From assembly GCA_900314725.1 (NCBI GenBank), contig OMWJ01000010.1:63156-127155 (forward strand): 64,000 bases of DNA, written 5' to 3'. The DNA is from an uncultured Bacteroidales bacterium (GTDB lineage Bacteria > Bacteroidota > Bacteroidia > Bacteroidales > P3). Below the pieces are notes generated by a model, which did no database searches, was not told the DNA's origin, and saw only the letters and a program-made list of their open reading frames with translations. The position numbers and the translations under genes were made by a program. This document shows, piece by piece, positions 14,839-53,612 of this stretch. How positions within the stretch are numbered: position 1 is the stretch's first letter; each line of letters starts with the position of its first letter.

Positions 14839-14846
14839 AAAGGCAG

Positions 14847-14965
14847 AAAAAACTCTTCGTTTTGAGAAAAAAAGACTTGATCTTTTTTTCTCAAAACTTG
14901 ATGTTTATGGTATAAAGACTTAGTCTTTTTTTCCTAACTCTTGATGTTTTTTCTCTTAACTTTTC
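14847..14965. repeat. Dispersed composite A-run/T-run mini-hairpin repeat, locus A
   Basis: The units are aaaaaactcttcgttttgag, gagaaaaaaag-acttgat-ctttttttctc (perfect 11-bp stem, 14864-14892), acttgatgtttatggtataaagacttagtcttttttt and cctaactcttgatgtttttt. It is collinear with the reverse complement of locus C. Confidence 0.75.
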
Positions 14966-15017
14966 ATTATGATTTTTCAAGTTTTTGAAAAAAGATTTTC
15001 ATTTCAGAAAAAATAAC

Positions 15018-15025
15018 TATTTTTG
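15018..15025 (+). promoter_or_regulatory. -7 box (TAnnTTTG) upstream of valS
   Basis: TATTTTTG lies 25 nt before the ATG at 15051. Confidence 0.45.
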
Positions 15026-15050
15026 CAAATTGTTAAAAATCTATACTACT

Positions 15051-28391: not shown

Positions 28392-29933
28392 TTATTTTGT
28401 AACTCTTTCAAGCCATTTAACCATTCCAAGCATTACTCCCATAGAAATAACACATACTATAAGGAATACTAACCAACAGTATTGGATTGGCCAAGCGTTG
28501 TACATAACAGGTCCTATCCATATAAGAAGGTTTCCTACTGCTGTTGCTCCAAGCCACAATCCTTGGCATAATCCCAAAAGATGTTTAGGTGCAACCTTAG
28601 AAACAAATGACAATCCCAAAGGAGAGATAAACAACTCTGCAACAGTAAGGAAGAAATAAGTAATGATAAGTACCCACCAATCTGCTTTCATACCTGCAGC
28701 TACTGATTCATCCATTGCTCTAAACTCTTCTCCTGAAGGATAACCTTGACCTGCTGAGAACAACATAAGGAACAAGTAAGCACAACCAGCTATTGCCATA
28801 CCATAAGCAATCTTTCGTGGAGTAGAAATATCTTTTCCTTTTCTTGCTAATGCTGCAAATATCCACATGATTATAGGTGTAAGAACGATTACGAAGAATG
28901 GATTAACAGCCTGCCAAATCTCTGGTGCTATCTTGTCTGTCTTCACGAAATCACGTGCAAAAACTGAAAGTGATTGTCCGTTCTGGTGGAAAGAGAACCA
29001 GAAGAATATTGCTATACCAAGAACTGCAAACAAAGCATACATTCTTTGTTTGATTTCTTTTGCCATTTGTTGTTTCTCTTCTGCTGTATAATTAACAGTC
29101 TCAGTTGCTTCTTTCTTAGCAGGTGTTGGGAATATTTTCTTATTAACAAGGAAAATAATCAAAGATATAAGCATAGCCGCAACGGAAGCAAAGAATGAGA
29201 AATGCACTCCTTGATTGAATACTTCCAAATACTTACTTGGATCAAAACTGCCTGTAAGTGTTGCAGCAGATGAAAGTTCATTATATTTAGCTACTTGGTC
29301 GCCGATGCTACCGTCTATTACCTTGTGGCAAAGTTCTGGAAGGTTGGCATTGTAAACAAAACCATTAACCTTTAACCACCATTGTCTTAACAATGGAGCA
29401 ACAAAAGGAGCTATCAAACCTCCGATATTGATGAATACATAAAAGATTTGGAAACCAGAATCACGCTTTGTCTTTGCTATTCTTAAAGCTTCTTCACCTT
29501 TCTTTGCTTCTTCTATTTCATAATTATCATACATTTGACCAACAATTGCTTGTAGATTACCTTTGAACAGACCATTACCAAAAGCAATAAGTGCTAAAGC
29601 AAGACATGTAAAAGGCAAAAGCCAAGAAATATTGTCAGATGTTGAAGTAATAGGTATAGCTAAAAGGACATAACCTAAAGCCATTACTATCAAACCCTTC
29701 TGAATTGTACCCTTGTAGTTCTGAGTACGGTCCGCAATAATACCTCCGACTAAAGAAAGCACATATATTGCAGCATAGAAAATAGAATAAATTAAACCAG
29801 ATGTGCTATCACTTAGTCCAAACTTAGAACAAAGGAATAACAACAGTACGGCATTCATAATATAGTAGCCAAAACGCTCACCCATATTACTCAAAGCAGC
29901 CGCAACTAAACCTTTTGGATGACTTTTAAACAT
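28392..29933 (-). CDS. Proton-dependent oligopeptide transporter (POT/PTR2 family MFS)
   Basis: 513 aa with the PTR2 signature GERFGYYIMNAVL. There are about 14 TM helices and a central insertion. Confidence 0.9.
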   Translation of the reverse strand: MFKSHPKGLVAAALSNMGERFGYYIMNAVLLLFLCSKFGLSDSTSGLIYSIFYAAIYVLSLVGGIIADRTQNYKGTIQKGLIVMALGYVLLAIPITSTSDNISWLLPFTCLALALIAFGNGLFKGNLQAIVGQMYDNYEIEEAKKGEEALRIAKTKRDSGFQIFYVFINIGGLIAPFVAPLLRQWWLKVNGFVYNANLPELCHKVIDGSIGDQVAKYNELSSAATLTGSFDPSKYLEVFNQGVHFSFFASVAAMLISLIIFLVNKKIFPTPAKKEATETVNYTAEEKQQMAKEIKQRMYALFAVLGIAIFFWFSFHQNGQSLSVFARDFVKTDKIAPEIWQAVNPFFVIVLTPIIMWIFAALARKGKDISTPRKIAYGMAIAGCAYLFLMLFSAGQGYPSGEEFRAMDESVAAGMKADWWVLIITYFFLTVAELFISPLGLSFVSKVAPKHLLGLCQGLWLGATAVGNLLIWIGPVMYNAWPIQYCWLVFLIVCVISMGVMLGMVKWLERVTK

Positions 29934-30004: not shown

Positions 30005-30110
30005 AAAAAAGTCTTCGTTTTCGTAAAAAAAGTCTTGATCTTTTACCCCAAAAGAGTTGGTTTTAGCAAAAAAAGTCTTGATCTTTTTTTCTCAAATCTT
30101 AGTCTTTTTC
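30005..30110. repeat. Dispersed composite A-run/T-run mini-hairpin repeat, locus B
   Basis: aaaaaagtcttcgttttcgtaaaaaaagtcttgatcttttaccccaaaagagttggttttagcaaaaaaagtcttgatctttttttctcaaatcttagtcttttt. It shares units with loci A, C and D. Confidence 0.75.
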
Positions 30111-30179
30111 AATGGAGTCCAACTTTAGAGTGCAAAGGTATATATTTTTTGAATTTTAGCAAAGAATTTAAACAAGAAA

Positions 30180-30824: not shown

Positions 30825-30894
30825 AGTCTGTATTAGAAAAAAAATTAAGGTGCCATTAACTGCAATAGCACCTTAAATTATTAAGAATTAAAAT

Positions 30895-40218: not shown

Positions 40219-40330
40219 GCTAAAAAAACATCAAGACTTAATGTAAAAAGATCAAGAGTTAGCAAAAAAAGATCAACTCTTTACACCCTAAACATCAAGT
40301 CTTTTTTTACTAAAACCAAGTCTTTTTTTA
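40219..40330. repeat. Dispersed composite A-run/T-run mini-hairpin repeat, locus C (inverted orientation)
   Basis: Contains the 26-mer caactctttacaccctaaacatcaag (40274-40299), identical to 50434-50459, plus units aaaaagatcaagagttagc, catcaagtcttttttt and aaccaagtcttttttt. Confidence 0.75.
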
Positions 40331-40447
40331 GCCGATCTTAGAAACCTGACAATAAATAATTTAGCCATAATCCATATTTTTCCATTTTTCTTTTCTATTT
40401 TATGAATACTCCTTTTCAATTGAAATTGTCAATTGAAATAAAATGTA

Positions 40448-40455
40448 TATTTTTG
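40448..40455 (+). promoter_or_regulatory. -7 box upstream of manA-mutS
   Basis: TATTTTTG lies 33 nt before the ATG at 40489. Confidence 0.45.
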
Positions 40456-40488
40456 CAGGCAGAAAAAAAACAAATAAAACAACATACG

Positions 40489-41478
40489 ATGAAAGAGCAA
40501 GGATTATATCCTTTGAAATTTATGCCTTTGTTCAAGGATAAAATTTGGGGAGGAAACAAGATAAGAGATATAGTCGGAATAGATTATTCTCCATTAAACA
40601 GATGCGGAGAACTATGGGTATTGTCTGCTTTAGAAGGAAATGAAACCGTGGTTGAAAATGGTTTCTTAGCAGAATGTACTCTACCTGAAGTAATAGAAAT
40701 GTATAATGATGAACTATTGGGAGAAGAGAATTTTGACAGATTTTCCACTGAATTTCCTTTGCTTATCAAATTGATAGATGCTAATGACAATTTGTCTATT
40801 CAAGTTCATCCCGATGACGACTATGCTTACAAGCACGGAATGGAAAATGGCAAAACAGAGATGTGGTATGTTTTACAAGCTGATGAAGGTTCTGAAATAT
40901 ATGTAGGCTTCAATGAAAAAGAGACAAAAGCCGACATAATCAACAGGTTAAGAAACAAAACTTTCAAAGAAGTTATGCACAAAGACATAGCGCAACAAGG
41001 AGATTTATTTTTTATACCTGCAGGTACAATGCACGCTATTGGCAAAGGTATTCTTTTAGCGGAAATACAACAAAGCAGCGATGCAACATTCCGTCTTTAT
41101 GACTGGGACAGAAAAGATGAAAAAGGGAATCCGAGACAACTTCATTTGGAACAAGGTTTAGAAGTTTTAGATCTTTCAAAACAAGAGGGAACTGCTAAAG
41201 TTCATTATCATTATCATCTAAATGAAACAAACAACTTAGTTGAATGCCCTTACTTTGTTACTAACATAATGCCTCTAACACAAGGACTAAAAAAAGATTA
41301 TTCTAATTCAGATACGTTTTATCTTTATTTTTGTGTTGCTGGCAAAGGTTTTGTAAGTTCAATGGGACATCGTATTCCTCTTAGTGCAGGAGAGATTTTA
41401 ATGATACCTGCAATAGCTAAAGATGCTATTATTGAACCAAGTCCTATGATGGAAATTTTGGAAATAACGATATTATAA
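40489..41478 (+). CDS. manA: Class I mannose-6-phosphate isomerase (cupin)
   Basis: LSIQVHPDDDYA, GKTEMWYVL and IPAGTMHAIG zinc-ligand motifs. The start is set at MKEQGLYPLKF (40489). Confidence 0.8.
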   Translation: MKEQGLYPLKFMPLFKDKIWGGNKIRDIVGIDYSPLNRCGELWVLSALEGNETVVENGFLAECTLPEVIEMYNDELLGEENFDRFSTEFPLLIKLIDANDNLSIQVHPDDDYAYKHGMENGKTEMWYVLQADEGSEIYVGFNEKETKADIINRLRNKTFKEVMHKDIAQQGDLFFIPAGTMHAIGKGILLAEIQQSSDATFRLYDWDRKDEKGNPRQLHLEQGLEVLDLSKQEGTAKVHYHYHLNETNNLVECPYFVTNIMPLTQGLKKDYSNSDTFYLYFCVAGKGFVSSMGHRIPLSAGEILMIPAIAKDAIIEPSPMMEILEITIL

Positions 41479-41504: not shown

Positions 41505-44144
41505 ATGGCAAATTCAGAGAAGATAACGCCTTTAATGAAACAATACAACGAGGTAAAGGCACAATACCCCGATACAATACTACTGTTTAGAGTCGGAGAT
41601 TTTTATGAAACTTTTGGAGAGGATGCCGTTGAGACTTCTAAGATTCTCAATATTGTACTAACAAAACGAAGTGCTAACGGACAAGATAGATTAGCAGGTT
41701 TTCCTTATCATGCTTTGGACAATTATCTTCCGCGTTTTATTCAAGCAGGTAAGCGAGTAGCTATATGCGAACAAATGGAAGATCCTAAACTTGCAAAAGG
41801 TATTGTAAAACGTAGCGTAGAAGAAATTGTAACTCCAGGCATTTCCTATGACTCTGCTATAGAACAACGTTCGCAAAATACTTTTCTTTGTGCCTTACAT
41901 AAAAAGAAAAATGAATATGGTGTTGCTTTCATTGATATAAATACAGGCGATTTCTTTGTTTCTGAAGGTAATGAATTAAACATAGACAAGTTGATTCAAA
42001 ATTTCATGCCTAAGGAAATAGTTATTCAGAGACATTATGAAAGAGAATTAGAAAATATATTACCAAACAATATCCTTACTAAAACATACGATGACTGGGT
42101 TTTCTCTTTAGATTTTGCCAAGGATACTTTGGAAGATGTTTTCGGAGTAAATTCGGCTAAAGGCTTTGGAATAGAAGACATGCCTCTTGCAACCATTGCT
42201 GCTGGTTCTGCTCTTTATTATATCAGAGAAACAAACCACAAGGAACTATCTCACATCTGTAACATATCTCGCATAGATAACAACGACTTTGTTTGGATGG
42301 ATAAATTCACCATTCGCAATCTTGAACTTGTTTCTTCTCATAATTCTAATGAAAGCACCTTATACCATATTTTAAATCGCACTCAGAGTAATATGGGGGC
42401 AAGACTTCTGCAACGATGGATTGTTTTGCCACTAAAGAAAAAAGAAGACATAGAACAAAGACAAAAAATAGTTACCTCTCTTATATATAATGATGAGTTA
42501 AGAGAAGTAATGAAAGAATCCTTGCAACAAATAGGAGATATGGAGCGAATAATATCAAGACTTTCTTTCCATAGAATTACTCCTAATGAATTATATCATT
42601 TTACAGATATTCTTTTTGCTATAGAAAAGTTGAAAGATTTTATCGCTTCTTTAGATAAAGACAAAGAGTTGTATCCAATTTTGGACGATTGCAAAGAAAT
42701 GAGAGAATTTGTTCTTAAAGCAATAAGTCCAGATGCTCCAAATAATATTAATAAAGGGAATGCTATAAAACAAGGATTCAATGCAGAGTTAGATAATTAC
42801 AGAGATATAACAACTAATTCTCAAAGTATCTTAGACGAAATATGTACAACAGAATCTGCAAAGACTAATATACCTTCCTTAAAGATTGGTTTTAATAATG
42901 TTTTTGGATATTACTTAGAAGTAACCAATACTCATAAAGATAAAGTACCTGAGAATTGGACAAGAAAACAAACTCTTGCAAATGCAGAACGATATATTAC
43001 TCCAGAACTTAAAGAGATAGAATCTGCCATGCTTTCAGCTCAAGAAAACATTTCTGCTTTAGAAAACAGATTATATCACGAAGTCATAGAAGAGTGTAAA
43101 ACATATATAGAACGATTGCATTCTTCTGCAGTGGAATTGTCTGTTTTGGATTGCTTACTTTCGTTTGCTATTGTAGCAATGGACAATGGTTATACTCGTC
43201 CAGAGATTATGGAAAGCGATATTTTACATATTGCACAAGGAAGACACCCTGTTATTGAAAAAATGTTACCTAAAGGAGAGGAATATATTGCTAATGATGT
43301 TTATTTGGATACTACTACTCAACAAATAGTAATCATTACTGGACCAAACATGAGTGGTAAAAGTGCGTATCTTCGTCAAACTGCTCTTATTGTCATTATG
43401 GCTCAAATAGGAAGTTATGTTCCTGCAAGACGTTCTCAAATAGGATTAGTAGATAAAATATTTACACGCGTAGGTGCTTCTGATAATATCGCTTCTGGTG
43501 AAAGTACTTTCATGGTAGAAATGAACGAAACGGCGTCTATTCTTAACAACCTTTCACCACATTCTCTCATTCTTTTAGACGAGATAGGTAGAGGTACTTC
43601 AACATACGATGGAGTTTCTATTGCTTGGGGGATTGCTTCATATCTACATAACTATAAGCACAGAGCAAAAGTTCTTTTTGCAACACATTATCACGAACTC
43701 ATTGCAATGGAACAAAACTTTGAAAGAATAAAGAACTATCATATAACAGTAAAAGAATTAGGTTCTAAAATAATATTCATAAGAAAGATTGCCAAAGGAG
43801 GTTCTTCTCAAAGTTTCGGTATTCACGTTGCTCGCCTTGCAGGAGTTCCAAAAGAGGTTCTTTCTATTGCCAATGATATGCTAACATCCTTGGAAGAATC
43901 TCGTTCAGACTCTCTACAACTTGGAATAGATGAGGGTGAAAACTCAAACAAAAACCGTAAAAAAGAGCAAAATGAAAGAAAAAAACAAGCAATAGAAAGT
44001 TTTCAAACAAGCTTTATTCAATTAAATGACCCTATACTTGAAGAAATAAAAGATGATATTTTAAATACTGATATAGAAAATCTTACACCTATTCAAGCTC
44101 TTAATAAGCTCAATGACATCAAAAAAATAATTCAAAAAGTTTAA
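41505..44144 (+). CDS. mutS: DNA mismatch repair protein MutS
   Basis: 879 aa with TPLMKQYNEVKAQYPDTILLFRVGDFYE, Walker A GPNMSGKS and LLDEIGRGTSTYDG. Confidence 0.95.
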   Translation: MANSEKITPLMKQYNEVKAQYPDTILLFRVGDFYETFGEDAVETSKILNIVLTKRSANGQDRLAGFPYHALDNYLPRFIQAGKRVAICEQMEDPKLAKGIVKRSVEEIVTPGISYDSAIEQRSQNTFLCALHKKKNEYGVAFIDINTGDFFVSEGNELNIDKLIQNFMPKEIVIQRHYERELENILPNNILTKTYDDWVFSLDFAKDTLEDVFGVNSAKGFGIEDMPLATIAAGSALYYIRETNHKELSHICNISRIDNNDFVWMDKFTIRNLELVSSHNSNESTLYHILNRTQSNMGARLLQRWIVLPLKKKEDIEQRQKIVTSLIYNDELREVMKESLQQIGDMERIISRLSFHRITPNELYHFTDILFAIEKLKDFIASLDKDKELYPILDDCKEMREFVLKAISPDAPNNINKGNAIKQGFNAELDNYRDITTNSQSILDEICTTESAKTNIPSLKIGFNNVFGYYLEVTNTHKDKVPENWTRKQTLANAERYITPELKEIESAMLSAQENISALENRLYHEVIEECKTYIERLHSSAVELSVLDCLLSFAIVAMDNGYTRPEIMESDILHIAQGRHPVIEKMLPKGEEYIANDVYLDTTTQQIVIITGPNMSGKSAYLRQTALIVIMAQIGSYVPARRSQIGLVDKIFTRVGASDNIASGESTFMVEMNETASILNNLSPHSLILLDEIGRGTSTYDGVSIAWGIASYLHNYKHRAKVLFATHYHELIAMEQNFERIKNYHITVKELGSKIIFIRKIAKGGSSQSFGIHVARLAGVPKEVLSIANDMLTSLEESRSDSLQLGIDEGENSNKNRKKEQNERKKQAIESFQTSFIQLNDPILEEIKDDILNTDIENLTPIQALNKLNDIKKIIQKV

Positions 44145-44174
44145 AAAAAATTTGGTTAGTATTTTTTTTCATAC

Positions 44175-44182
44175 TATTTTTG
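44175..44182 (+). promoter_or_regulatory. -7 box upstream of the tRNA-Gly/Gly/Leu cluster
   Basis: TATTTTTG lies 93 nt before the first tRNA. Confidence 0.4.
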
Positions 44183-44275
44183 CAACGTCAAATTCAGAAG
44201 GGGCTGAATTGTTTGAGAGAGGCTTAAAAGAGAGATTTGTGGTGCGGAAGTTTCTTTTGAAGATGATATTAAATT

Positions 44276-44348
44276 GCGGGCATAGCTCAGTTGGTAGAGC
44301 GCAACCTTGCCAAGGTTGAGGTCGCGAGTCCGAGTCTCGTTGCCCGCT
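44276..44348 (+). tRNA. tRNA-Gly (anticodon GCC)
   Basis: Hand-folded cloverleaf. Acceptor stem is GCGGGCA/TGCCCGC. Anticodon stem is CAACC/GGTTG with loop TTGCCAA. The T arm is GCGAG-TCCGAGT-CTCGT. Confidence 0.9.
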
Positions 44349-44403
44349 CTTTTTTTTATACTTAAGAGTTCTTAAATATATAGAGTAAGAGAAAACGAAA
44401 CAA

Positions 44404-44475
44404 GCGGAAGTAACTCAGTGGTAGAGTGCAACCTTCCCAAGGTTGAGGTCGCGAGTTCGAGTCTCGTTTTCCGCT
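44404..44475 (+). tRNA. tRNA-Gly (anticodon CCC)
   Basis: Hand-folded cloverleaf. Acceptor stem is GCGGAAG/TTTCCGC. Anticodon stem is CAACC/GGTTG with loop TTCCCAA. The T loop is TTCGAGT, and the body is nearly identical to the preceding tRNA-Gly. Confidence 0.9.
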
Positions 44476-44488
44476 CTCAAAACACGAT

Positions 44489-44572
44489 GCCATGGTGGTG
44501 GAATGGTAGACACGAGGGACTTAAAATCCCTTGAACAATGCGTTCGTGTGGGTTCAAGTCCCACCCGTGGTA
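44489..44572 (+). tRNA. tRNA-Leu (anticodon TAA), class II with long variable arm
   Basis: Acceptor stem is GCCATGG/CCGTGGT and the D arm is GTG-GAATGGTAGA-CAC. Anticodon stem is AGGGA/TCCCT with loop CTTAAAA. The variable stem is GAAC/GTTC and the T arm is GTGGG-TTCAAGT-CCCAC. Confidence 0.88.
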
Positions 44573-44608
44573 CTCTTTTAAAAGTTTTTACTATAATCAT
44601 ATTGTTTG

Positions 44609-44640
44609 CTAATGTTTTTATAAAAACATTAGTTTTTTTT
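44609..44640 (+). terminator. Terminator after the tRNA cluster
   Basis: Stem CTAATGTTTT / AAAACATTAG with loop tata, then TTTTTTTT. Confidence 0.75.
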
Positions 44641-44669
44641 ATTATATAATGAATTCCAAAAAATACAAC

Positions 44670-44708
44670 AAGATAAAGAAATAGCCTTCCTTGAAAAAGA
44701 AAGGCTAT
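44670..44708 (-). terminator. Terminator after trmB
   Basis: Stem ATAGCCTT / AAGGCTAT. The sequence downstream on the minus strand is T-rich. Confidence 0.5.
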
Positions 44709-44716
44709 CGTATTTT

Positions 44717-45376
44717 TTATAACTGAAACTTTATGTATTTTATTTTTTTACCTTCTTTTAGATACATCTTTTCATAAAAAGTCTGTATCTCTTTGACATC
44801 ATCTTCAAAGTCCGTCCCATACAAATCATTGCTTTCAAAAATAATGTGATGATTCTCTTGCTTAAGCATTTCAGAAGTATATTCATAGAGTTCTGTGCTA
44901 TCTGTCTTAAGATGAAGGATACCACCGGGCTTTATCACCTTTGCATATCTTTCCAAAAAACGTGGGCAAGTAAGTCTTCTATTTTCATTTTTCAGTTGAG
45001 GATCACAGAAAGTAATCCATATCTCATCAACTTCATCTTTATCAAAAAGCTTTTCTAACATCTGAATCTGACAACGCAAGAAAGCCACATTTCTCATTTT
45101 ATTTTCAAAAGCTGTCTTGCATCCTCTCCAAAGTCTTGCTCCTTTAATATCTATTCCTATAAAGTTTCTTTCTGCATACCTCTCGCCTAAACCAACAGTA
45201 TATTCTCCTTTCCCACAACCAAGTTCCAAAACGATAGGATTATCATTCTTAAAATACTCTTCTCTCCACTTGCCTTTAAGAAAGAAGTCATTATTCTTTA
45301 GTTGTTCAAAACCGACCTGAAAAAGATTATCAAACGTAAGGTTCTCGGCAAATCTTTCTAATTTATTTTTACCCAT
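44717..45376 (-). CDS. trmB: tRNA (guanine46-N7)-methyltransferase
   Basis: SAM-binding motif VLELGCGKGEYTVGLG plus FCDPQLK... The start is set at MGKNKLERFAEN (45376). Confidence 0.9.
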   Translation of the reverse strand: MGKNKLERFAENLTFDNLFQVGFEQLKNNDFFLKGKWREEYFKNDNPIVLELGCGKGEYTVGLGERYAERNFIGIDIKGARLWRGCKTAFENKMRNVAFLRCQIQMLEKLFDKDEVDEIWITFCDPQLKNENRRLTCPRFLERYAKVIKPGGILHLKTDSTELYEYTSEMLKQENHHIIFESNDLYGTDFEDDVKEIQTFYEKMYLKEGKKIKYIKFQL

Positions 45377-45389
45377 AACTCTTATTATA

Positions 45390-46088
45390 TTAATACAAGC
45401 CTTTGACTGTTGATTTTTTAGCAATAAAATCTTTTAGATAATAAGGTTCAAAGTATGCTTTATCTTCAAACTCCCCTACCCTATATTTCTGTGAAGCTAT
45501 TATTCCCATATACCTTGCATTCAAAACCAAACTCTCATCAAAAACATAAATATCATCATTCAACACTTGTTTGCATTTTTCAGCACCATCTCCTGCTACT
45601 ATTATTTTTTTATCTTTATGGTACATATTATATATATCACTTTCCACTATATCTGCTGAGATAGTCTTTAAAGTATTAAGATTTTCATCATAAATAGCAG
45701 AATAAACCTCCATTCTTCTTGCATCTATCATCGGAAGATAGCAACTATTAGGATACTTCTGCTTTGACACAAAAGCAATCAAAAATAATGTATCTACAGA
45801 AATCAAAGGAATATTCAGTCCGTATGCTAAACCTTTAGCAGAAGAAACTCCTATTCTAAGTCCCGTGTAAGATCCCGGGCCTTTGCTAACAGCAACAGCA
45901 TTTAAATCCTTTCTAATATCTTTACCATAGTCTGAAAAGATTTCTTCTATAAGTAAAGACAACATCTGAGAGTGAGAATTTGGTTTTGCACTCTCCTTAT
46001 AGAGCAACAACTCATCTCCCTTAGAGAGAGATACAGAACAAAGACCCGTTGCTGTTTCAATATTGAGAATAAGTGGTTCTTGTATCAT
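45390..46088 (-). CDS. tsaB: tRNA threonylcarbamoyladenosine biosynthesis protein TsaB
   Basis: ILNIETATGLCSVSL and VSKGPGSYTGLRIG; 232 aa. Confidence 0.85.
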   Translation of the reverse strand: MIQEPLILNIETATGLCSVSLSKGDELLLYKESAKPNSHSQMLSLLIEEIFSDYGKDIRKDLNAVAVSKGPGSYTGLRIGVSSAKGLAYGLNIPLISVDTLFLIAFVSKQKYPNSCYLPMIDARRMEVYSAIYDENLNTLKTISADIVESDIYNMYHKDKKIIVAGDGAEKCKQVLNDDIYVFDESLVLNARYMGIIASQKYRVGEFEDKAYFEPYYLKDFIAKKSTVKGLY

Positions 46089-46090
46089 AT

Positions 46091-46140
46091 TAAAAAAATG
46101 ACTATGCTATGCTATTATATATAATATATAGCATAGTCAT
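46091..46140 (-). terminator. Terminator after the DUF3127-like gene
   Basis: 13-bp perfect stem ATGACTATGCTAT / ATAGCATAGTCAT, followed on the minus strand by TTTTTTT. Confidence 0.75.
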
Positions 46141-46159
46141 CATTTATTTACTTATTTAA

Positions 46160-46639
46160 TTAGAATGGCAAATCATTTTCAGGGTCATCTTCCATCATAG
46201 TCTCTTGTTCTATATTGCCTCCCGTTCCAACTTGTTGTGCTGAAACCGGTGTCGGATTAGAAGCCATATTATTTGGCTGTTGATATGGAGTACTTTGCAT
46301 TGTAGGCTGTTGCGCTGATTGTCCATTTTGAGCAGAAACAGGATTGTTTCCTCCATTAAGATTAGAAACAAAAGCTCCTATATTTCTACATCTGCAGTCA
46401 GTATACCATCTGCCATTATATTCTCTGGATTCTATTTCAAATGTTACCTGAATAGTATCTCCCATTCTTATAGATTTAAGAGTTGCAAGCATATCTTCTC
46501 CCCATGTAGAGAAAGCTATACTTCTTGGAAAAGAAGAGTCTATCAAATCAATCACAAAACCTCCTCTTACCCAAGGTCCTCTTGCTGATTCTCCCCTTGA
46601 TTCTGGAAGAACCATTCTTAGTTTTCCTATTACTTCCAT
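46160..46639 (-). CDS. DUF3127-like protein (putative OB-fold-like N-terminal domain) with low-complexity linker and acidic C-terminal tip
   Basis: The N-terminal ~95 aa (MEVIGKLRMVLPESRGES...TFEIESREYNGRWYTDCRC) resemble DUF3127. The C-terminal ~60 aa are Q/N/P/G-rich and end in EDDPENDLPF. Confidence 0.65.
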   Translation of the reverse strand: MEVIGKLRMVLPESRGESARGPWVRGGFVIDLIDSSFPRSIAFSTWGEDMLATLKSIRMGDTIQVTFEIESREYNGRWYTDCRCRNIGAFVSNLNGGNNPVSAQNGQSAQQPTMQSTPYQQPNNMASNPTPVSAQQVGTGGNIEQETMMEDDPENDLPF

Positions 46640-46672
46640 GTTATATTATTGTTTTATTATTATACGTTCAAA

Positions 46673-48817
46673 TTATTTTCTATTGTTCATTTGTTCGACA
46701 AAGGCTTTTTCTTTGTCTGTCATACGTTTTGCAGCAGGACTGTTAGGTTTAAGCCATTTGTCTAACCAATCAAAGAAGTTTCTTTGCCAAAGAATACCAT
46801 TTTGTGGTCTAAGAACCCAATGTGTTTCATCAGGGAAATAAAGATAACGTGCAGGAATATCCAGATTAAGTGCAGCATTATAAGCAGCCATACCTTGAGA
46901 AGCAACAATTCTAAAATCAAATTCAGAATGTATAACCAACAAAGGAGTATTCCATTTTGTTACAAAGCGGTGAGGAGAATTTGCGTATGACTTCTGAACC
47001 TTAGGATCTTTACTCCAATAAGGGCCTCCCAAATCCCAATTCACAAACCACATTTCTTCTGTTTCCAAATACTGTTGATCCAAGTTGAACATACCATTAT
47101 GTGCAATGAAAGCCTTGAATCTGTTCTCGTGATGTCCAGCAAGCCAATAAACAGAGAAACCTCCGAAGCTTGCACCTACAGCACCTCTGTGATCTTTATC
47201 AACATAACTTTCTTTACTTATTTCATCTATTGCTGTCAGATAGTCTCTCATACATTGACCACCATAGTCCCCGCTAATTTGTTCATTCCATTCTTGTCCA
47301 AATCCTGGCAATCCTCTACGATTAGGAGCTACTATGATATAGCCATTAGCAGCCATGATAGAGAAATTCCAACGATAAGACCAGAATTGAGAAACAGTGC
47401 TTTGAGGTCCTCCCTCGCAATAAAGCAAGGTAGGATATTTCTTGGTTGAATCAAAATCAGGAGGGTAGATAACCCAAGTATGTAAATCTTTTCCGTCAGT
47501 TGCCTTAAGCACTCTTTCTTCTACTTTTCCCCATTTAATTTTATCCATCAGCTCATCATTGGTTGTGGAGATTTTTTCTTCCTTACCATTCTTAACAGAC
47601 CATATCTCTATAGGATGAAGCATAGACATCTGAGTAGCTATTAAACGGTCTTTGGCAATCATTACTGATGTGTAGTCAGCATTTGCATTGGTTATCTGCT
47701 TGATTCCCTTGCTTGCAATATCCATTTTATATATATTGTCTCTTCCATGCCAATCAGAAGTAAAGTACATAGATTTGTTATCAGCAGTAAATTTGATTCC
47801 GCCAACATTTTGATCAAATTTCTCTGTCATATAAGTAACTCTTCCTGTTGCAAGATCACATAGCATAAGACGTATCTTGTCTGCTTCATATCCATCTCTT
47901 TCCATACTTTCCCACGCAATCATCTTACCATCTGCAGAGAATACAGGATTCTGATCATAACCCATCATATTCTCAGAAAGGTTCTTAACTTGCTTTGTTG
48001 CTATATCATATAGATAAATATCAGAATTGGTAGAATAAGCATAATCTTTACCTGTCTTTTTTCTACATGTATAAGCAATTTTTTTACTATCTGGAGAGAA
48101 TGCAAGTTGTTCCATACCTCCCCAAGGACGCATTGGACTTTCATATTCTGTTCCTTCCAAAAGATTAACACCTTCTTTTATGCTCTTTCCATCAAAATCT
48201 GCAACAAAAGGCTGAGGAACATTATCTACCCAATTATCCCAATGACGATACATTAAATCATCATTAACTCTTCCTGTTGTTTTATCTAAACCCTCCTTTA
48301 AGTAAGCATATTTATCTTTTTTTGCTATACCTCTTACATAAAGTATTTTCTTTCCGTCAGGAGAATAAGCAAAACCTTCCAAATCGCCTTCCTTGAAGTC
48401 CGAAATCTTTGTTCTGTTTGAACCATCAAGATTCATTTCCCAAATATTTACATTGTCATCTTCTGCATAGATAAAACCTATCTTATCTCCCTTAGGATTA
48501 AAGATAACATTAAACTCTGAGTTTTTTGTTTCTGTAAGACGCTGAACATTTTTTCCGTCCTTATCCATTATATATACATCTGCATTACCTCTGTTCTGCT
48601 CAACAGAATAGTAAGTAACAGTATAAAGTACTTTCTCTCCATCTGGAGAAACAGAAACATCGCCTATTCTACCAAAAGCCCACAACACTTCTGGAGAAAG
48701 CATACCATTCTTTACTTCTACTTGAGGTTTATCAATAATGTCTTTGTCTTTTGTCTTTTGCTGGCAAGATGCAAACACCATAGCTATCAAGCCTACAGCC
48801 AATAATACTCTTTTCAT
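46673..48817 (-). CDS. S9 family serine peptidase (prolyl oligopeptidase/DPP-like) with N-terminal TolB-like beta-propeller
   Basis: 714 aa with lipoprotein signal VFASC. The N-terminal half is propeller-like. The C-terminal alpha/beta hydrolase domain carries the nucleophile elbow GASFGG. Confidence 0.85.
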   Translation of the reverse strand: MKRVLLAVGLIAMVFASCQQKTKDKDIIDKPQVEVKNGMLSPEVLWAFGRIGDVSVSPDGEKVLYTVTYYSVEQNRGNADVYIMDKDGKNVQRLTETKNSEFNVIFNPKGDKIGFIYAEDDNVNIWEMNLDGSNRTKISDFKEGDLEGFAYSPDGKKILYVRGIAKKDKYAYLKEGLDKTTGRVNDDLMYRHWDNWVDNVPQPFVADFDGKSIKEGVNLLEGTEYESPMRPWGGMEQLAFSPDSKKIAYTCRKKTGKDYAYSTNSDIYLYDIATKQVKNLSENMMGYDQNPVFSADGKMIAWESMERDGYEADKIRLMLCDLATGRVTYMTEKFDQNVGGIKFTADNKSMYFTSDWHGRDNIYKMDIASKGIKQITNANADYTSVMIAKDRLIATQMSMLHPIEIWSVKNGKEEKISTTNDELMDKIKWGKVEERVLKATDGKDLHTWVIYPPDFDSTKKYPTLLYCEGGPQSTVSQFWSYRWNFSIMAANGYIIVAPNRRGLPGFGQEWNEQISGDYGGQCMRDYLTAIDEISKESYVDKDHRGAVGASFGGFSVYWLAGHHENRFKAFIAHNGMFNLDQQYLETEEMWFVNWDLGGPYWSKDPKVQKSYANSPHRFVTKWNTPLLVIHSEFDFRIVASQGMAAYNAALNLDIPARYLYFPDETHWVLRPQNGILWQRNFFDWLDKWLKPNSPAAKRMTDKEKAFVEQMNNRK

Positions 48818-48848
48818 ATCTTAGTCTTTTTTATTATTTTCCTATCTG

Positions 48849-48856
48849 CAAAAATA
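48849..48856 (-). promoter_or_regulatory. -7 box upstream of the S9 peptidase gene
   Basis: The minus strand reads TATTTTTG. The ATG is at 48817. Confidence 0.45.
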
Positions 48857-48946
48857 TACATTTTATCTCAAATGATAAAATATTTATTATCATTTTATAG
48901 TGATCTTTAAAAACACGCTCCCTATTGCTTACAAAAATATAGGCAC

Positions 48947-48980
48947 AAAAAAAAGCAGTCAATTTAATGGGACTGCTTTC
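48947..48980 (-). terminator. Terminator after the 55-aa lipoprotein gene
   Basis: The minus strand reads GCAGTC-ccattaaatt-GACTGC followed by TTTTTTTT. Confidence 0.65.
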
Positions 48981-49004
48981 TAATTAATTGCTAATCTAAC
49001 TGAA

Positions 49005-49172
49005 TTATTTTGCTACGTCAGTTGGAGTTGCAGTTGGAGTTGTTGTTGGAGTAGCAGTTACTTCTTCAGTTGGAGTGTTTTCTGTAGGAGTTGTTGTTGC
49101 TGACTCTGTTCCTTTGCTTCCACATGCTGCGAAAAATCCAGCGATAGCTAATACTAACAATACTTTTTTCAT
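49005..49172 (-). CDS. Small Thr/Pro-rich lipoprotein (55 aa), below the ORF-track length cut-off
   Basis: Hand translation gives MKKVLLVLAIAGFFAACGSKGTESATTTPTENTPTEEVTATPTTTPTATPTDVAK*. The signal peptide has lipobox FAAC. A -7 box lies 48 nt upstream and a hairpin plus T-run about 25 nt downstream. Confidence 0.55.
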   Translation of the reverse strand: MKKVLLVLAIAGFFAACGSKGTESATTTPTENTPTEEVTATPTTTPTATPTDVAK

Positions 49173-49219
49173 TTTTTTCTTGTTTTTAAAGGTTTATAAA
49201 TTCTTTTGTTTTAACATTG

Positions 49220-49227
49220 CAAAGATA
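49220..49227 (-). promoter_or_regulatory. -7 box upstream of the 55-aa lipoprotein gene
   Basis: The minus strand reads TATCTTTG. The ATG is at 49172. Confidence 0.45.
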
Positions 49228-49397
49228 AAGCAAGTTTTCTTTTTGTCAATCTTTTTTTGAAAAAAAAACAACATAAATTTATAAATTATTGATAATCAGA
49301 TTTAAAAAATACAAAAAATATTGCATAATTTTGTTTCTTCTGCATAAAAAATAGCATACATTGAATTATTTTTTTGTTTAAAGTGCCTAAAAATATG

Positions 49398-49405
49398 TAT
49401 TTTTG
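49398..49405 (+). promoter_or_regulatory. -7 box upstream of queE
   Basis: TATTTTTG lies 20 nt before the ATG at 49426. Confidence 0.45.
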
Positions 49406-49425
49406 CAAAACAAATGCTAAAAAAA

Positions 49426-50055
49426 ATGAGATTACCAGTCTTTGAAATGTTCTATTCTGTTCAGGGTGAGGGAGAAAATACAGGTATGCCTGCATATTTT
49501 GTTCGTCTTGCCGGTTGCAATGTTGCTTGTCCTTTTTGCGATGAGAAAAAAGCATGGAGCAAGGACAACTCCAAACTTATGGATACTGCGGAAATAGTAG
49601 ATACCATACTCAAGTCCAAAGCAAAGAATGTTGTCATAACGGGAGGAGAACCTACAATATATGACCTAACCGAACTTACTGAAAAACTAAAAGAAAAGAA
49701 CATCAAAATATTCTTGGAGACTTCAGGAGTAAATGAAGTAAGAGGACTTTTTTCTCACATCACCCTTTCTCCTAAACAACATCTTCTACCCCTTTGCAAG
49801 AAAGATTCAGATTATAGCAAAGAAGTATTTGCTTCCAGAGTAGATTCTTTGAAAGTAGTTATCTCGTCCAAGTCTGACTTTGCTTTCGCTGAGAGAATGA
49901 AAGACTGCTTAAAGAAAGAGAGCTCCTGTTCATTATTTCTACAACCCGAATGGAACAGAAAAGAGACAATAATTCCAGAAATAATAGACTATATAAAACA
50001 GCATCCAGAGTGGAATCTTTCCTTACAGACACATAAATACATAAATGTAAAATAA
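49426..50055 (+). CDS. queE: 7-carboxy-7-deazaguanine synthase (radical SAM)
   Basis: FYSVQGEGENTGMPAYFVRLAGCNVACPFCD (CxxxCxxC). The start is set at MRLPVFE (49426), because the ATG at 49414 lies only 8 nt after the -7 box. Confidence 0.85.
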   Translation: MRLPVFEMFYSVQGEGENTGMPAYFVRLAGCNVACPFCDEKKAWSKDNSKLMDTAEIVDTILKSKAKNVVITGGEPTIYDLTELTEKLKEKNIKIFLETSGVNEVRGLFSHITLSPKQHLLPLCKKDSDYSKEVFASRVDSLKVVISSKSDFAFAERMKDCLKKESSCSLFLQPEWNRKETIIPEIIDYIKQHPEWNLSLQTHKYINVK

Positions 50056-50161
50056 AAATCAAAACATCATAATCTTGTAATAACCAAAAAAATAAATCTC
50101 TCAAGAAACATAAATCAAAAAAAATATCTTTCAAAAATTTGGTCATAATAAAAAAAGGTTA

Positions 50162-50169
50162 TAATTTTG
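50162..50169 (+). promoter_or_regulatory. -7 box upstream of tRNA-Phe
   Basis: TAATTTTG lies 21 nt before the tRNA 5' end. Confidence 0.45.
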
Positions 50170-50190
50170 CAAACGCAAAGGTAAGATGAT

Positions 50191-50263
<73 letters not shown>

Positions 50264-50271
50264 CATAAAGA

Positions 50272-50304
50272 AAGAGATTCTTTATTTGAAGAGTCTCTTT
50301 TTTT
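50272..50304 (+). terminator. Terminator after tRNA-Phe
   Basis: 11-bp stem AAGAGATTCTT / AAGAGTCTCTT (one G.U pair) with loop tatttg, running into a T-run. Confidence 0.7.
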
Positions 50305-50382
50305 GTATGATTAAGTTAATACAATTCTTCGCATCAATACAAAAGACACAAAAAACTCTATATCAAAACTTTAGGCTTATCC

Positions 50383-50488
50383 AAAAATGTCTTCGTTTTC
50401 GCAAAAAAAGAGTTGGTTTTAATTTTTTAAAACCAACTCTTTACACCCTAAACATCAAGAGTTAAAAAATTAAAACGAAGACTTTTTA
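50383..50488. repeat. Dispersed composite A-run/T-run mini-hairpin repeat, locus D (nested palindromic arrangement)
   Basis: The outer inverted repeat is gtcttcgtttt (50389-50399) / aaaacgaagac (50472-50482). The inner 13-bp palindrome is gagttggttttaa-tttt-ttaaaaccaactc (50410-50439). The shared 26-mer is at 50434-50459. Confidence 0.75.
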
Positions 50489-50683
50489 AAACACATAAAA
50501 CCAAAAACATTAACTTGCTTCATTTCATATACTTTTTTTTTACGGACAACTGTCTTAGTCGTTCATCTTTAATGTTCTTTCAATACTATTTATTTTGTAT
50601 ATCTGATATCTCTTTACTACTGTTCATAAACTTCTATTTTCAACATATCTGCCCTCTTAAATAAATTAATTAATTATAAGTAA

Positions 50684-52602: not shown

Positions 52603-52654
52603 CCAACAAGCTTACTATCTTTATTCTGTCTTTTACAATTTATTAATTATTCTC

Positions 52655-52820
52655 TCCTACTCATTTAAAGGCTTTTCGGAATCCTCCTTTTTATTTAAAC
52701 GTTATTTAATATGATTTATTTTCATTGCACAATGATAAGTGCGATTATGCGAACATTCAATGTATGTTTGACGCTATTACAATTGTTTTTCTTCACCGCT
52801 GTTCATATTTCCTCCTTTCG
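52655..52820. repeat. Conserved ~165-bp non-coding intergenic element, copy 1
   Basis: Aligns end to end with 53362-53525. Contains hairpin A (52724-52745), hairpin B (52749-52774) and two CCTCCTTT boxes (52683-52690, 52811-52818). Confidence 0.8.
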
Positions 52821-53342: not shown

Positions 53343-53361
53343 TTTTTATGTTTTTTATTTT

Positions 53362-53525
53362 TCCTACTCTATTAAAGGCTTTTCGGAAACCTCCTTTTTA
53401 TTTAAACGTTATTTAATATGATTTATTTTCATCGCACGATGATAAGTGCGATTATGCGAAACATTCACTGGATGTTTGACGCTATTGCAATAATTTTTAA
53501 CTGCCATTCATATTTCCTCCTTTCG
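53362..53525. repeat. Conserved ~165-bp non-coding intergenic element, copy 2
   Basis: Aligns with copy 1. Contains hairpin A (53431-53452), hairpin B (53456-53482) and CCTCCTTT boxes (53390-53397, 53516-53523). Confidence 0.8.
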
Positions 53526-53554
53526 CATTATCAAAAAAAATGCTTTATGAATTT

Positions 53555-53612
53555 ATTTGCATTGCACGATAATAAGTGCAATTATGCGAAACGTCCATTC
53601 AGGAGACACTGC
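53555..53612. repeat. Partial third copy of the element core (hairpin A plus degenerate hairpin B)
   Basis: tttatttgcattgcacgataataagtgcaattatgcgaaacgtccattcagg aligns with tttattttcatcgcacgatgataagtgcgattatgcgaaacattcactgg of copy 2. Confidence 0.7.

What the first reader, a model, noticed from the sequence alone, without database searches (positions are those of the whole stretch)
50383..50488. Dispersed composite repeat family of A-run/T-run mini-hairpins (locus D, nested palindrome next to tRNA-Phe)
Four intergenic regions in this 64-kb window carry clearly related ~100-120-bp arrays: 14847-14965, 30005-30110, 40219-40330 and 50383-50488. The arrays are built from ~20-bp units of the form A(4-7)-G(A/T)CTT(G/C)(A/G)T(C/G)-T(4-7), for example aaaaaaagtcttgatcttttttt. 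Other recurring words are gtcttcgttttcg, agagttggtttta and ctttacaccctaaacatcaag.

Loci C and D share an identical 26-mer (40274-40299 = 50434-50459). Loci B and D share aaaaa(a/t)gtcttcgttttcg(t/c)aaaaaaag. Locus A is collinear with the reverse complement of C.

Locus D is arranged as nested inverted repeats: the outer pair is gtcttcgtttt/aaaacgaagac and the inner one is a 13-bp perfect palindrome. Four copies in 64 kb implies a high genomic copy number. I do not recognise this as a described REP/BIME/MITE family.
Basis: seen in the sequence. Interest (0 to 1): 0.62.

Follow-up and report, generated by a model that had tools for sequence, protein, structure and literature searches.

The report
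Modular intergenic repeat of rumen Bacteroidales
The four look-alike stretches are real copies of an apparently undescribed small non-coding repeat, built from 21-22-bp modules, that is scattered between genes in some uncultured rumen Bacteroidales and is present or absent at the same site in close relatives; it looks like another family of "junk-like" mobile intergenic DNA, not a new kind of system.

Summary
Window loci A-D are the only four copies in 64 kb, where none is expected by chance.

Each copy is an 85-125-bp array of 4-6 modules. A module is AAAAAG-W-S-TTG-R-T-N-TTT, spaced 21 or 22 bp, in either orientation.

I found 38 distinct sites in rumen and gut metagenome contigs and in at least three Bacteroidales MAG lineages (30-38% GC). 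All lie between crude ORF calls. Density is about 1 per 17 kb.

Unlinked copies reach 94.5% identity over about 90 bp, with unrelated flanks.

Locus A is missing from an 84%-identical relative. Locus B is missing from two relatives and decayed in a third. More distant relatives have no copies. No copies were found in phage or plasmid collections, and no Rfam family matches.

Hairpin-forming versions with mixed module orientation, such as locus D, look like bidirectional intrinsic terminators. They are enriched between convergent genes (10/11 against 9/22). Direct-only versions such as B sit harmlessly in a transcribed 5' leader.

Best reading: a non-autonomous, lineage-specific modular repeat analogous to BOX, BIME or BrickBuilt. 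Its mobilising enzyme is unknown, and termination is a side effect of the hairpin forms. It is not a REP (no GTAG/CGTC tag) and not a proven MITE (no target-site duplication, terminal inverted repeats in only some copies). It is a new family of a known kind, of moderate interest.

The parts
14845..14960 (+). Array A. Five modules, all forward. It lies between the stop codon of a Na+/H+ exchanger gene (14838) and the valS promoter.
   Evidence: Sequence. PWM units start at 14848, 14869 and 14912, plus two weaker ones. The array is absent from the orthologous spacer of L189, an 84%-identical relative whose spacer is 102 bp against 212 bp here. Three independent assemblies begin inside it.
14859..14897 (+). 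17-bp-stem hairpin inside array A, followed by a U-rich stretch. It is the only terminator-like structure after the upstream gene.
   Evidence: Terminator-like hit. Fold of the array gives z -5.5. A metatranscriptome contig of the upstream gene ends at 14876; this is ambiguous because assemblers also break at repeats.
30005..30110 (+). Array B. Five modules, all forward, which is antisense to the flanking genes. It is inserted between the promoter and the start codon of a POT-family peptide transporter gene (28392-29933, minus strand).
   Evidence: Sequence. Units start at 30006, 30027, 30049 and 30070. A -7 box TACCTTTG lies at 30133-30140 on the minus strand. RNA contigs run from the gene into the array, to 30074 and 30109, at the gene's depth. 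The array is absent from L200, L201 and L202 and decayed in L199. Fold in the mRNA sense gives z -1.8.
40219..40330 (-). Array C. Five modules, all reverse. It lies between the divergent promoters of a MerR-family gene and a mannose-6-phosphate isomerase gene.
   Evidence: Sequence. Units start at 40226, 40268, 40290 and 40311 on the minus strand. TRF reports period 21. An orthologous copy is in L145. RNA contig coverage is close to none (0-2.7, against 5-16 in the neighbouring bins).
50383..50488 (.). Array D, the finding itself. Two forward modules are followed by reverse ones (two above the scan threshold, plus a weaker one at about 50450), giving a nested palindrome. It lies between the tRNA-Phe gene and the 3' end of a 476-aa gene on the minus strand.
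   Evidence: Sequence. Units start at 50384(+), 50405(+), 50428(-) and 50471(-). It is 91.8% identical over 98 bp to an unlinked copy in L129. Between strains the only differences are an 11-bp and a 26-bp indel at the array edges.
50407..50442 (.). Inner hairpin of D. Arms of 16 bp, loop of 4, with an A-run on one side and a T-run on the other, which is the shape of a bidirectional intrinsic terminator.
   Evidence: Fold. The same 36-nt head-to-head module pair recurs at 15 other sites. An RNA contig of the 476-aa gene runs from 51664 down to 50413 and stops there; this is ambiguous.
50389..50399 (.). Outer stem of D, left arm (GTCTTCGTTTT).
   Evidence: Pairs with 50472-50482 in the minimum-free-energy and centroid structures on both strands.
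50472..50482 (.). Outer stem of D, right arm (AAAACGAAGAC).
50191..50264 (+). Context: tRNA-Phe(GAA). It has its own terminator hairpin at about 50270-50306, so array D is not needed to end the tRNA transcript.
   Evidence: sequence.

Best explanation
**What it is.** This is a lineage-specific, non-coding, non-autonomous dispersed repeat. It belongs to the same broad class as BOX, BIME/REPIN, BrickBuilt and other MITE-like elements.

**Structure.** An element is a block of usually 4-6 modules, about 85-125 bp in all. Each module is about 21.4 bp and contains the motif AAAAAG-W-S-TTG-R-T-N-TTT.

**How it behaves (shown).**
- Whole blocks have been copied into intergenic DNA.
- After insertion they change quickly, by gain or loss of half, whole or a little more than whole modules.
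- Modules occur in either orientation.

**Consequences of orientation.**
- When two modules face each other they form a fixed 36-nt unit: A-run, stem, loop, stem, T-run. That is the shape of a factor-independent bidirectional terminator.
- Such versions are the ones found between convergent genes.
- All-direct versions fold weakly and are tolerated in a 5' leader and in a promoter region.

**Inferred, not shown.**
- Copying depends on a trans-acting enzyme that recognises the conserved 16-nt motif. That enzyme has not been found.
- The element is mainly selfish or neutral.
- Termination or RNA-end protection is a by-product that selection can retain.
For: 1. **Copy number and location.** There are 38 distinct sites, all between crude ORF calls (ORFs of 80 aa or more). 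Counting the window and its two extensions gives 5 copies in 84 kb. Many metagenome contigs end inside arrays.
2. **Whole blocks are copied.** Unlinked copies are up to 94.5% identical over 91 bp, and their flanks are unrelated. Array B is 84% identical over 109 bp to a copy in a MAG with different flanks.
3. **Filled and empty sites.** A is present in relatives at 99% and 91% identity and absent at 84%. B is present at 97.6%, decayed in an 85%-identical segment, and absent from L200/L201 and L202.
4. **No purifying selection on a resident copy.** Between the window and L199, array B is 63% identical, while its flanks are 89% and 76%.
5. **Patchy distribution.** About 80 kb from relatives with 74-89% protein identity holds no arrays at all. 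The family is nevertheless present in MAGs of 30%, 33% and 38% GC.
6. **No orientation rule relative to transcription.** Among the ten direct-only arrays between co-directional genes, my reading of the table gives six in the same sense as the genes and four opposite.
7. **Hairpin versions sit at convergent sites.** Mixed-orientation arrays account for 10 of 11 convergent sites against 9 of 22 other sites, Fisher p = 0.009. Mean fold z is -5.0 for mixed arrays against -1.65 for direct ones.
8. **Tolerated in a leader.** B lies in the transcribed leader of a well-expressed gene.
Against: - No transposase or other partner was found. The ~420-470 kb examined holds no multi-copy ORF and no IS200-like ORF, and the whole genomes could not be searched.
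- No target-site duplication is visible, and the exact ends are blurred by the A/T runs.
- The filled/empty comparisons are between relatives only 83-84% identical, or known only at 89% protein identity (L202). The junctions are not clean, and for locus A a deletion in the relative cannot be excluded.
- Seventeen of 38 arrays have no inverted module, so a classical two-ended transposon does not describe them.
- The strict two-helical-turn spacing and the motif's conservation across genomes of different GC content could instead reflect binding of a host protein.
- Support for termination comes only from contig ends, which also arise from assembly breaks at repeats.
Confidence: 0.65

Rival explanations
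1. The arrays are functional binding sites for a sequence-specific DNA-binding protein, such as a nucleoid-associated, partition-like or regulatory protein. The protein would recognise the 16-nt motif and load cooperatively on one face of the helix. In this reading the repeats are host 'iteron-like' sites rather than selfish DNA.
For: - Neighbouring same-orientation modules are spaced 21 bp (53 cases) or 22 bp (38 cases) out of 104, which is two helical turns.
- Head-to-head pairs always have the same 36-nt geometry.
- The core positions are nearly invariant while the spacers are free.
- The motif is the same in MAGs of 30%, 33% and 38% GC.
- The arrays work in either orientation and occur only outside genes.
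Against: - Arrays are missing at orthologous sites and from about 80 kb of related genomes.
- A resident copy decays faster than its flanks.
- Whole multi-module blocks, including the non-motif spacers, are shared between unlinked sites. That indicates copying rather than independent selection of sites.
- There is no consistent position relative to promoters: array C lies upstream of two, B lies downstream of one, and D lies near none.
Confidence: 0.15
2. The arrays are first and foremost transcription terminators or RNA 3'-end stabilisers. They would have been multiplied because the host needs them, and the direct-only arrays would be decayed or precursor forms.
For: - D-type and canonical forms have an A-run, a 14-17-bp stem and a T-run on both strands.
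- These forms are enriched between convergent genes, p = 0.009.
- Arrays A and D are the first terminator-like structures after their upstream genes, and RNA contigs stop within them at 14876 and 50413.
Against: - Most genes in the window have their own unique, GC-containing terminators.
- Forty-five per cent of arrays (17 of 38) have no inverted module and fold no better than shuffled sequence.
- Six of 32 arrays lie between divergent genes.
- Array B is read through inside a leader.
- Pairing in the hairpins is barely above what any two inverted modules would give: 91.9% against 89.5% in shuffles, with a covariation score reached by 16 of 500 shuffles.
- Relatives do without the arrays at the same sites.
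Confidence: 0.12
3. The arrays encode small RNAs or cis-regulatory RNA structures.
For: The hairpin forms fold far better than shuffles. Array B is part of an mRNA leader.
Against: - No Rfam family reaches threshold. The only hits are weak matches to AT-rich hairpin models.
- There is no associated promoter motif and no fixed orientation relative to genes.
- Array C has close to no RNA contig coverage.
- Covariation is weak.
Confidence: 0.03

Closest known systems
BOX elements of Streptococcus pneumoniae and S. suis (boxA-boxB(n)-boxC; Croucher et al. 2011, PMC3049150)
   Same: Both are modular and intergenic, and occur in many copies per genome (over a hundred is my extrapolation from 5 arrays in 84 kb). 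Both have a variable number of internal tandem modules between terminal modules that pair with each other. Both fold into stem-loops if transcribed. In neither is an autonomous partner firmly identified, and both vary between strains.
   Different: There is no sequence relation and the host phylum differs. Here all modules are variants of a single 21-22-bp unit, not three different 45-59-nt boxes. Any module can be inverted, and many copies have no pairing termini.
BrickBuilt MITE/minisatellite of Porphyromonas gingivalis (Klein et al. 2015, PMC4596501)
   Same: Both are Bacteroidales elements found only between genes, dispersed, and built around imperfect tandem direct repeats of about 22-23 nt. 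The number of repeats varies from copy to copy.
   Different: [quoted passage not shown] The present family has no leader or tail, its ends are the modules themselves, its density is roughly ten-fold higher, and its modules also occur inverted.
REP / BIME / REPIN elements mobilised by RAYT transposases (Bertels & Rainey 2011, PMC3116915; Di Nocera et al. 2013, PMC3733652)
   Same: Density is similar, about one per 10-20 kb. Both are extragenic, form clusters of short units in both orientations, and include head-to-head doublets that make a hairpin. Neither makes a target-site duplication. Distribution among related strains and species is patchy.
   Different: There is no GTAG or CGTC tag. The unit is not itself a GC-containing palindrome. 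Head-to-tail arrangement predominates (94 of 121 adjacent pairs), whereas REPs favour head-to-head dimers. No RAYT gene has been seen.
SPRITE (pneumococcus), Correia elements and NIMEs (Neisseria): terminator-like or mosaic intergenic repeats (described in PMC3049150)
   Same: These are dispersed repeats whose long A/U-flanked duplex looks like an oversized Rho-independent terminator. NIMEs are likewise mosaics of short repeated units.
   Different: They are unrelated in sequence. Correia elements have defined 26-bp terminal inverted repeats and a TA duplication. None of them is built from one phased 21-bp module.

Membership tests
REP (GTAG / CGTC superfamilies) | A conserved GTAG or CGTC tetranucleotide at one end of the unit, not involved in pairing (PMC3733652) | tested here: not met
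   The unit profile built from 117 distinct units shows A-runs and T-runs at both ends and neither GTAG nor CGTC (sequences).
REP (GTAG / CGTC superfamilies) | The unit is a 20-40-bp imperfect palindrome with a 5-13-bp stem | tested here: not met
   Only A:T pairs between the flanking runs could pair within a single unit. The closing position and the T-run beyond 3 nt are not conserved. Direct-only arrays fold with a mean z of -1.65.
REP (GTAG / CGTC superfamilies) | Head-to-head or tail-to-tail dimers predominate | tested here: not met
   Ninety-four of 121 adjacent unit pairs have the same orientation.
REP (GTAG / CGTC superfamilies) | A RAYT (Y1/HUH transposase) gene flanked by the repeats | tested here: inconclusive
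   No IS200-like ORF was found in about 470 kb of family-bearing DNA, using a probe sequence written from memory. The window holds no transposase. The whole genomes could not be searched.
MITE | Small, AT-rich, non-coding and multi-copy | tested here: met
   Arrays span 60-211 bp, median 83, measured between scored units. There are 38 distinct sites, none inside a crude ORF call.
MITE | Terminal inverted repeats | tested here: inconclusive
   Canonical copies have perfect 17-bp terminal inverted repeats, for example L128 and L129_7039, but the repeat sequence differs between copies. Seventeen of 38 arrays have no inverted module.
MITE | Target-site duplication | tested here: not met
   None is visible in the alignment of nine copies with their flanks. 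A short A/T duplication hidden within the terminal runs cannot be excluded.
MITE | Insertion polymorphism between related genomes | tested here: met
   Locus A is filled in the window and empty in L189. Locus B is filled in the window and empty in L200, L201 and L202.
MITE | A cognate IS element with matching ends | tested here: inconclusive
   About 420 kb holds no multi-copy ORF. The ORFs lying between two nearby arrays are exbB and exbD. Complete genomes are needed.
BOX-type modular repeat | Pairing terminal modules that enclose a variable number of tandem internal modules | tested here: met
   This holds for the canonical forms, which consist of modules a, b, c and an inverted a. Arrays contain 3 to 9 scored units. 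It is a resemblance in architecture only: no homology with BOX sequences was tested here, and the module sizes and host phylum differ.
Rho-independent terminator | A stable stem-loop followed directly by a U-run, with 3' ends mapping there | tested here: inconclusive
   The structure is present in D, A and the other mixed arrays. The only RNA evidence is contig ends at 50413 and 14876. B and C lack the structure.
Any Rfam RNA family | A score at or above the family's gathering threshold | tested here: not met

The most novel reading that the evidence does not exclude
The 16-nt module could be the recognition site of a still unknown trans-acting protein that binds arrays at two-turn phasing. 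The family would then be a new type of modular element.

In this reading, individual modules (or the short spacers between them) flip in place, using their own A-run/T-run inverted flanks. Each flip would create or destroy a bidirectional terminator. The result would be an evolvable 'terminator cassette' system in uncultured rumen Bacteroidales.

Three observations are compatible with this but do not prove it:
- the flipped central spacers;
- the fixed 36-nt geometry of head-to-head pairs;
- the sorting of hairpin forms to convergent sites.
Probability: 0.12. Interest if true: 0.7.

Novelty: new member of a known kind. Interest (0 to 1): 0.42.

Why it matters
**Practical.** The family breaks metagenome assemblies of an abundant, uncultured rumen Bacteroidales lineage. 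Many contigs end inside arrays. Knowing the motif helps with scaffolding and binning, and it offers a strain-typing marker, as BOX and REP PCR do elsewhere.

**Biological.**
- It adds a clear case of a high-density small repeat in Bacteroidota, a phylum in which I know of few such families and in which my literature searches found only BrickBuilt and CGTC-type repeats.
- Its single-module construction makes the link between module orientation and terminator formation unusually easy to read.
- Locus B shows that about 105 bp can sit in a 5' leader of an expressed gene.

**Open question.** If a dedicated enzyme or binding protein exists, it is still to be found.

Tried and rejected
1. **First collection scan too loose.** Only six loci were real arrays. 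A two-module pattern then worked on metagenomes: 66 loci, about 45 of them true.
2. **Metatranscriptomes were available only as assembled contigs.** They show that array B is transcribed together with its gene and that contigs stop inside A and D. Contig ends at repeats and palindromes are also assembly artefacts, so termination remains unproven.
3. **Target-site duplications.** None was found.
4. **Autonomous partner.** No multi-copy ORFs turned up. The genes lying between two nearby arrays are exbB and exbD. A 2.6-kb insertion in L142 carries two ordinary genes, not an IS. No IS200-like ORF was found.
5. **Rfam.** Nothing at gathering thresholds, and nothing meaningful at permissive thresholds.
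6. **Viral contigs, GenBank phages and PLSDB plasmids.** No true arrays.
7. **Tandem Repeats Finder.** It flags only locus C (period 21). The other arrays are too degenerate.
8. **Covariation in the 36-nt head-to-head hairpin.** Pairing is 91.9% against 89.5% in shuffles, and the covariation score is reached by 16 of 500 shuffles. The pairing is mostly an automatic result of inverting a conserved module and is not strong evidence for selection on structure.
9. **Intrinsic DNA curvature.** I considered it only by reasoning about the phasing of the A/T tracts, which are roughly half a turn apart and so largely cancel. I did not compute it.
10. **Sigma-70 promoter scan.** Uninformative, at 82 hits found against 80 expected. 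Bacteroidota -7 boxes (TAnnTTTG) were read by eye instead.

Full report
**Source and setting**

The window has about 33% GC and encodes housekeeping and type IX secretion genes typical of Bacteroidota: PorP, PorV, PorU, GldL, ValRS, PGK, enolase and MutS. The same DNA occurs in many bovine and sheep gut metagenomes. The closest named assembly is an uncultured 'Bacteroidales bacterium' MAG, GCA_045116935.1, which is 99.1% identical over 22.6 kb. No transposase or integrase gene is in the window.

The four arrays are at the stated coordinates and the quoted shared words are exact.

- A 25-nt central word occurs three times where 0.00 is expected.
- The unit word with up to 3 mismatches occurs six times where 0.62 is expected.
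- A profile scan gives 16 strong units in the window and none in a shuffled copy.
- nhmmer with 38 family members as queries finds exactly these four places.

Locus D is a nested palindrome with 16-bp inner arms and an 11-bp outer stem. It folds at -32.3 and -38.3 kcal/mol on the two strands (z about -6.9).

**Anatomy**

I collected 117 distinct units to build a profile. The conserved motif is A(3-5)-G-W-S-T-T-G/c-R-T-N-T-T-T. It is followed by about 8 free bases and then the next A-run.

Same-orientation neighbours are 21 bp apart in 53 cases and 22 bp apart in 38 cases, out of 104. The long T-run and the base that would close an A/T 'mini-hairpin' are not conserved.

Arrays hold 3-9 scored units, most often 4.

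A canonical element is visible:
- module a: often GTCTTCG or GAGTTGG;
- module b: GWCTTGATGTTTA plus a 5-7-nt spacer;
- module c: GASTTGRTC plus a T-run;
- often an inverted module that matches either a or c.

Examples are L128 (AAAAAAGTCTTCGTTTT ... AAAACGAAGACTTTTTT) and L129_7039 (AAAAAAGAGTTGG TTTT ... AAAACCAACTCTTTTTT).

Head-to-head module pairs have a fixed geometry. At all but one of the 16 sites with such a pair, the distance from AAAG to CTTT is 36 nt; at the remaining site it is 37 nt.

In the window, A and B are all-forward, C is all-reverse, and D is two forward followed by reverse modules (two scored, one weaker).

**It is a family, and it is widespread in a restricted group**

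A scan of representative genomes, although noisy, found true arrays in three places:
- Bacteroidales MAG UBA5515;
- four contigs of an uncultured 'Bacteroidaceae' MAG (SRP315200_co2_517);
- ruminal_MAG_7, which is syntenic with window 42790-50308 at 83% identity and carries a differently built array just after the same tRNA-Phe.

A two-module pattern found 66 metagenome loci, of which about 45 are true arrays. In total I counted 54 arrays at 38 distinct sites.

Host contigs range from 30% to 38% GC. Extending the window by 10 kb on each side adds one more array, giving 5 in 84 kb. That extrapolates to roughly 150-180 copies in a genome of 2.5-3 Mb, though the genome size is assumed.

No true array was found in IMG/VR viral contigs, GenBank phages or PLSDB plasmids. 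No Rfam family matches.

**Evidence that blocks are copied and come and go**

- **Unlinked copies are closely similar.** Identity reaches 94.5% over 91 bp (L129_9198 against L140_923). Window D is 91.8% identical over 98 bp to L129_9198. In the alignment the flanks are unrelated. Array B is 84% identical over 109 bp to a copy in the 38%-GC MAG, with no flank similarity.
- **Locus A has an empty site.** In L189 (84% nucleotide identity, ValRS 93% identical, same gene order) the spacer between the exchanger gene and valS is 102 bp, against 212 bp in the window. Homology is lost exactly over window 14842-14978. The array is present in the 99% relative. Contigs of 91-96% relatives begin inside it.
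- **Locus B has empty sites.** Relatives L200 and L201 (83%) and L202 go from the -7 box to the start codon without any array. In L199 the array lies in a segment that is 85% identical to the window. There it has decayed to 63% identity while its flanks are 89% and 76% identical.
- **More distant relatives have none.** About 80 kb from relatives with 74-89% identity in ValRS or POT holds no arrays.
- **Strains differ only at array edges.** Among strains with identical flanks, the only differences at locus D are an 11-bp and a 26-bp indel at the two edges of the array.

No target-site duplication is visible. No candidate mobilising gene was found in the ~420-470 kb examined.

**Relation to genes and transcription**

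All sites lie between crude ORF calls. Of the 32 with a gene on both sides, 16 lie between co-directional genes, 10 between convergent genes and 6 between divergent genes. Direct-only arrays show no preferred orientation relative to the flanking genes.

Mixed-orientation arrays account for 10 of 11 convergent sites but only 9 of 22 others, Fisher p = 0.009. They also fold much better than shuffles, with a mean z of -5.0 against -1.65 for direct arrays.

Pairing in the 36-nt hairpin (91.9%) is only slightly above what random pairs of modules give (89.5%). The covariation score was reached by 16 of 500 shuffles. Terminal inverted modules match an upstream module at the five variable positions somewhat more than chance: 185 against 161 ± 8.6. 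The hairpins are thus largely an automatic result of inverting a conserved module.

Metatranscriptome contigs add the following.
- The POT transporter transcript includes array B at the gene's depth. A Bacteroidota-type -7 box (TACCTTTG, 30133-30140, minus strand) lies just upstream of the array, so B sits in a 5' leader and is read through.
- valS transcripts start near 15032, downstream of A, behind a -7 box at 15018-15025.
- Array C, between two divergent promoters, has close to no coverage.
- Contigs of the genes upstream of A and D stop inside the hairpins, at 14876 and 50413. This fits termination, but it fits assembly breakage equally well.
- Most other genes in the window have their own unique terminators.

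**Interpretation**

The weight of evidence favours a selfish or neutral non-autonomous repeat:
- block-level copying;
- gain and loss between relatives;
- faster decay than the flanks;
- a patchy host range;
- indifference to gene orientation.

Hairpin versions are preferentially kept, or tolerated, where a bidirectional terminator does no harm or some good.

The main rival is a phased array of binding sites for a host protein. It is kept alive by the strict two-turn spacing and the conserved motif. It does not explain the empty sites, the decay, or the shared non-motif spacers.

**Comparison with known families**

The family is not a REP. It has no GTAG or CGTC tag, the unit is not a palindrome, and modules are mostly head-to-tail (definitions from PMC3733652).

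It meets only part of the MITE definition. It is small, AT-rich, multi-copy and polymorphic, but terminal inverted repeats occur only in some copies, there is no target-site duplication, and no IS partner is known.

In architecture it is closest to pneumococcal BOX elements (PMC3049150). Within Bacteroidales it is closest to the BrickBuilt element of P. gingivalis, which has 23-nt tandem repeats inside a leader and tail with GC-rich terminal inverted repeats, at about 19 copies per genome (PMC4596501).

Literature searches turned up no description of this family. The library searched is incomplete.

**Verdict**

It is a new family of a known kind of element. Interest is moderate. The mechanism of spread and any host function remain inferred.

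Noticed in passing
window 52654-52689 and 53361-53396 (minus strand); repeats 52655-52760, 53362-53467 and 53551-53597: Two DUF805b RNA motifs reach Rfam's gathering score. They sit in a tandem duplication of about 707 bp (95% identity over 99 nt, with a third partial copy), each upstream of a small ORF with no Pfam match (127 and 144 aa).
   Followed up: no
window 40426-40480 and 48824-48878 (inverted): A 55-nt stretch, 82% complementary, is shared by the upstream regions of the mannose-6-phosphate isomerase gene and the S9 peptidase gene. It contains AAAATGTATATTTTTGCAG, which is a -7-box-like promoter. It also implies that the isomerase starts at the ATG at 40490, not at 40402.
   Followed up: partly
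window about 30825-30894; L142:1792-4412; L199: The spacer between the enolase and WbqC genes is a breakpoint in two other assemblies. L142 carries 2.6 kb of extra DNA there, holding two genes, one with DUF3943 and no transposase. L199 switches there from 97.5% to 85.4% identity to the window. This suggests a recombination junction between lineages, or chimeric contigs.
   Followed up: partly
central spacer of the arrays, e.g. window 14907-14913, 40282-40288 and 50442-50448; L128, L129 and L144: The 5-7-nt spacer after GATGTTTA occurs in both orientations (GGGTAT against TACCCT, and GGGGT against ACCCC in locus B) while the flanking modules keep their orientation. It looks as if this short piece, flanked by TTTA/TAAA, had flipped in place. 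This is unexplained.
   Followed up: partly
16 head-to-head module pairs, e.g. window 50407-50442: The distance from AAAG to CTTT across two facing modules is 36 nt in all but one case (37 nt), whatever the loop sequence. This fixed geometry is not required by hairpin formation alone.
   Followed up: partly
window 49018-49076: A 12-nt-period repeat (CAGTTGGAGTTG, 3.4 copies) lies in the spacer between the S9 peptidase gene and the radical-SAM gene, where a 55-aa ORF is called in related contigs. One metatranscriptome shows very high contig depth here (bin 49001-49500).
   Followed up: no
L204:14041-20680 (just beyond the window's left end): A block of about ten small or unannotated genes, with DUF3791 and DUF3990 at its end, is followed directly by a fifth array of the family. 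It may be an accessory island.
   Followed up: no
L085:7560-7720 against window 50312-50490: In ruminal_MAG_7 (83% identical), homology to the window stops just after the tRNA-Phe terminator. A differently built, all-forward array of the same family follows. This could reflect independent insertions next to the same tRNA gene or rapid turnover of a single copy.
   Followed up: partly
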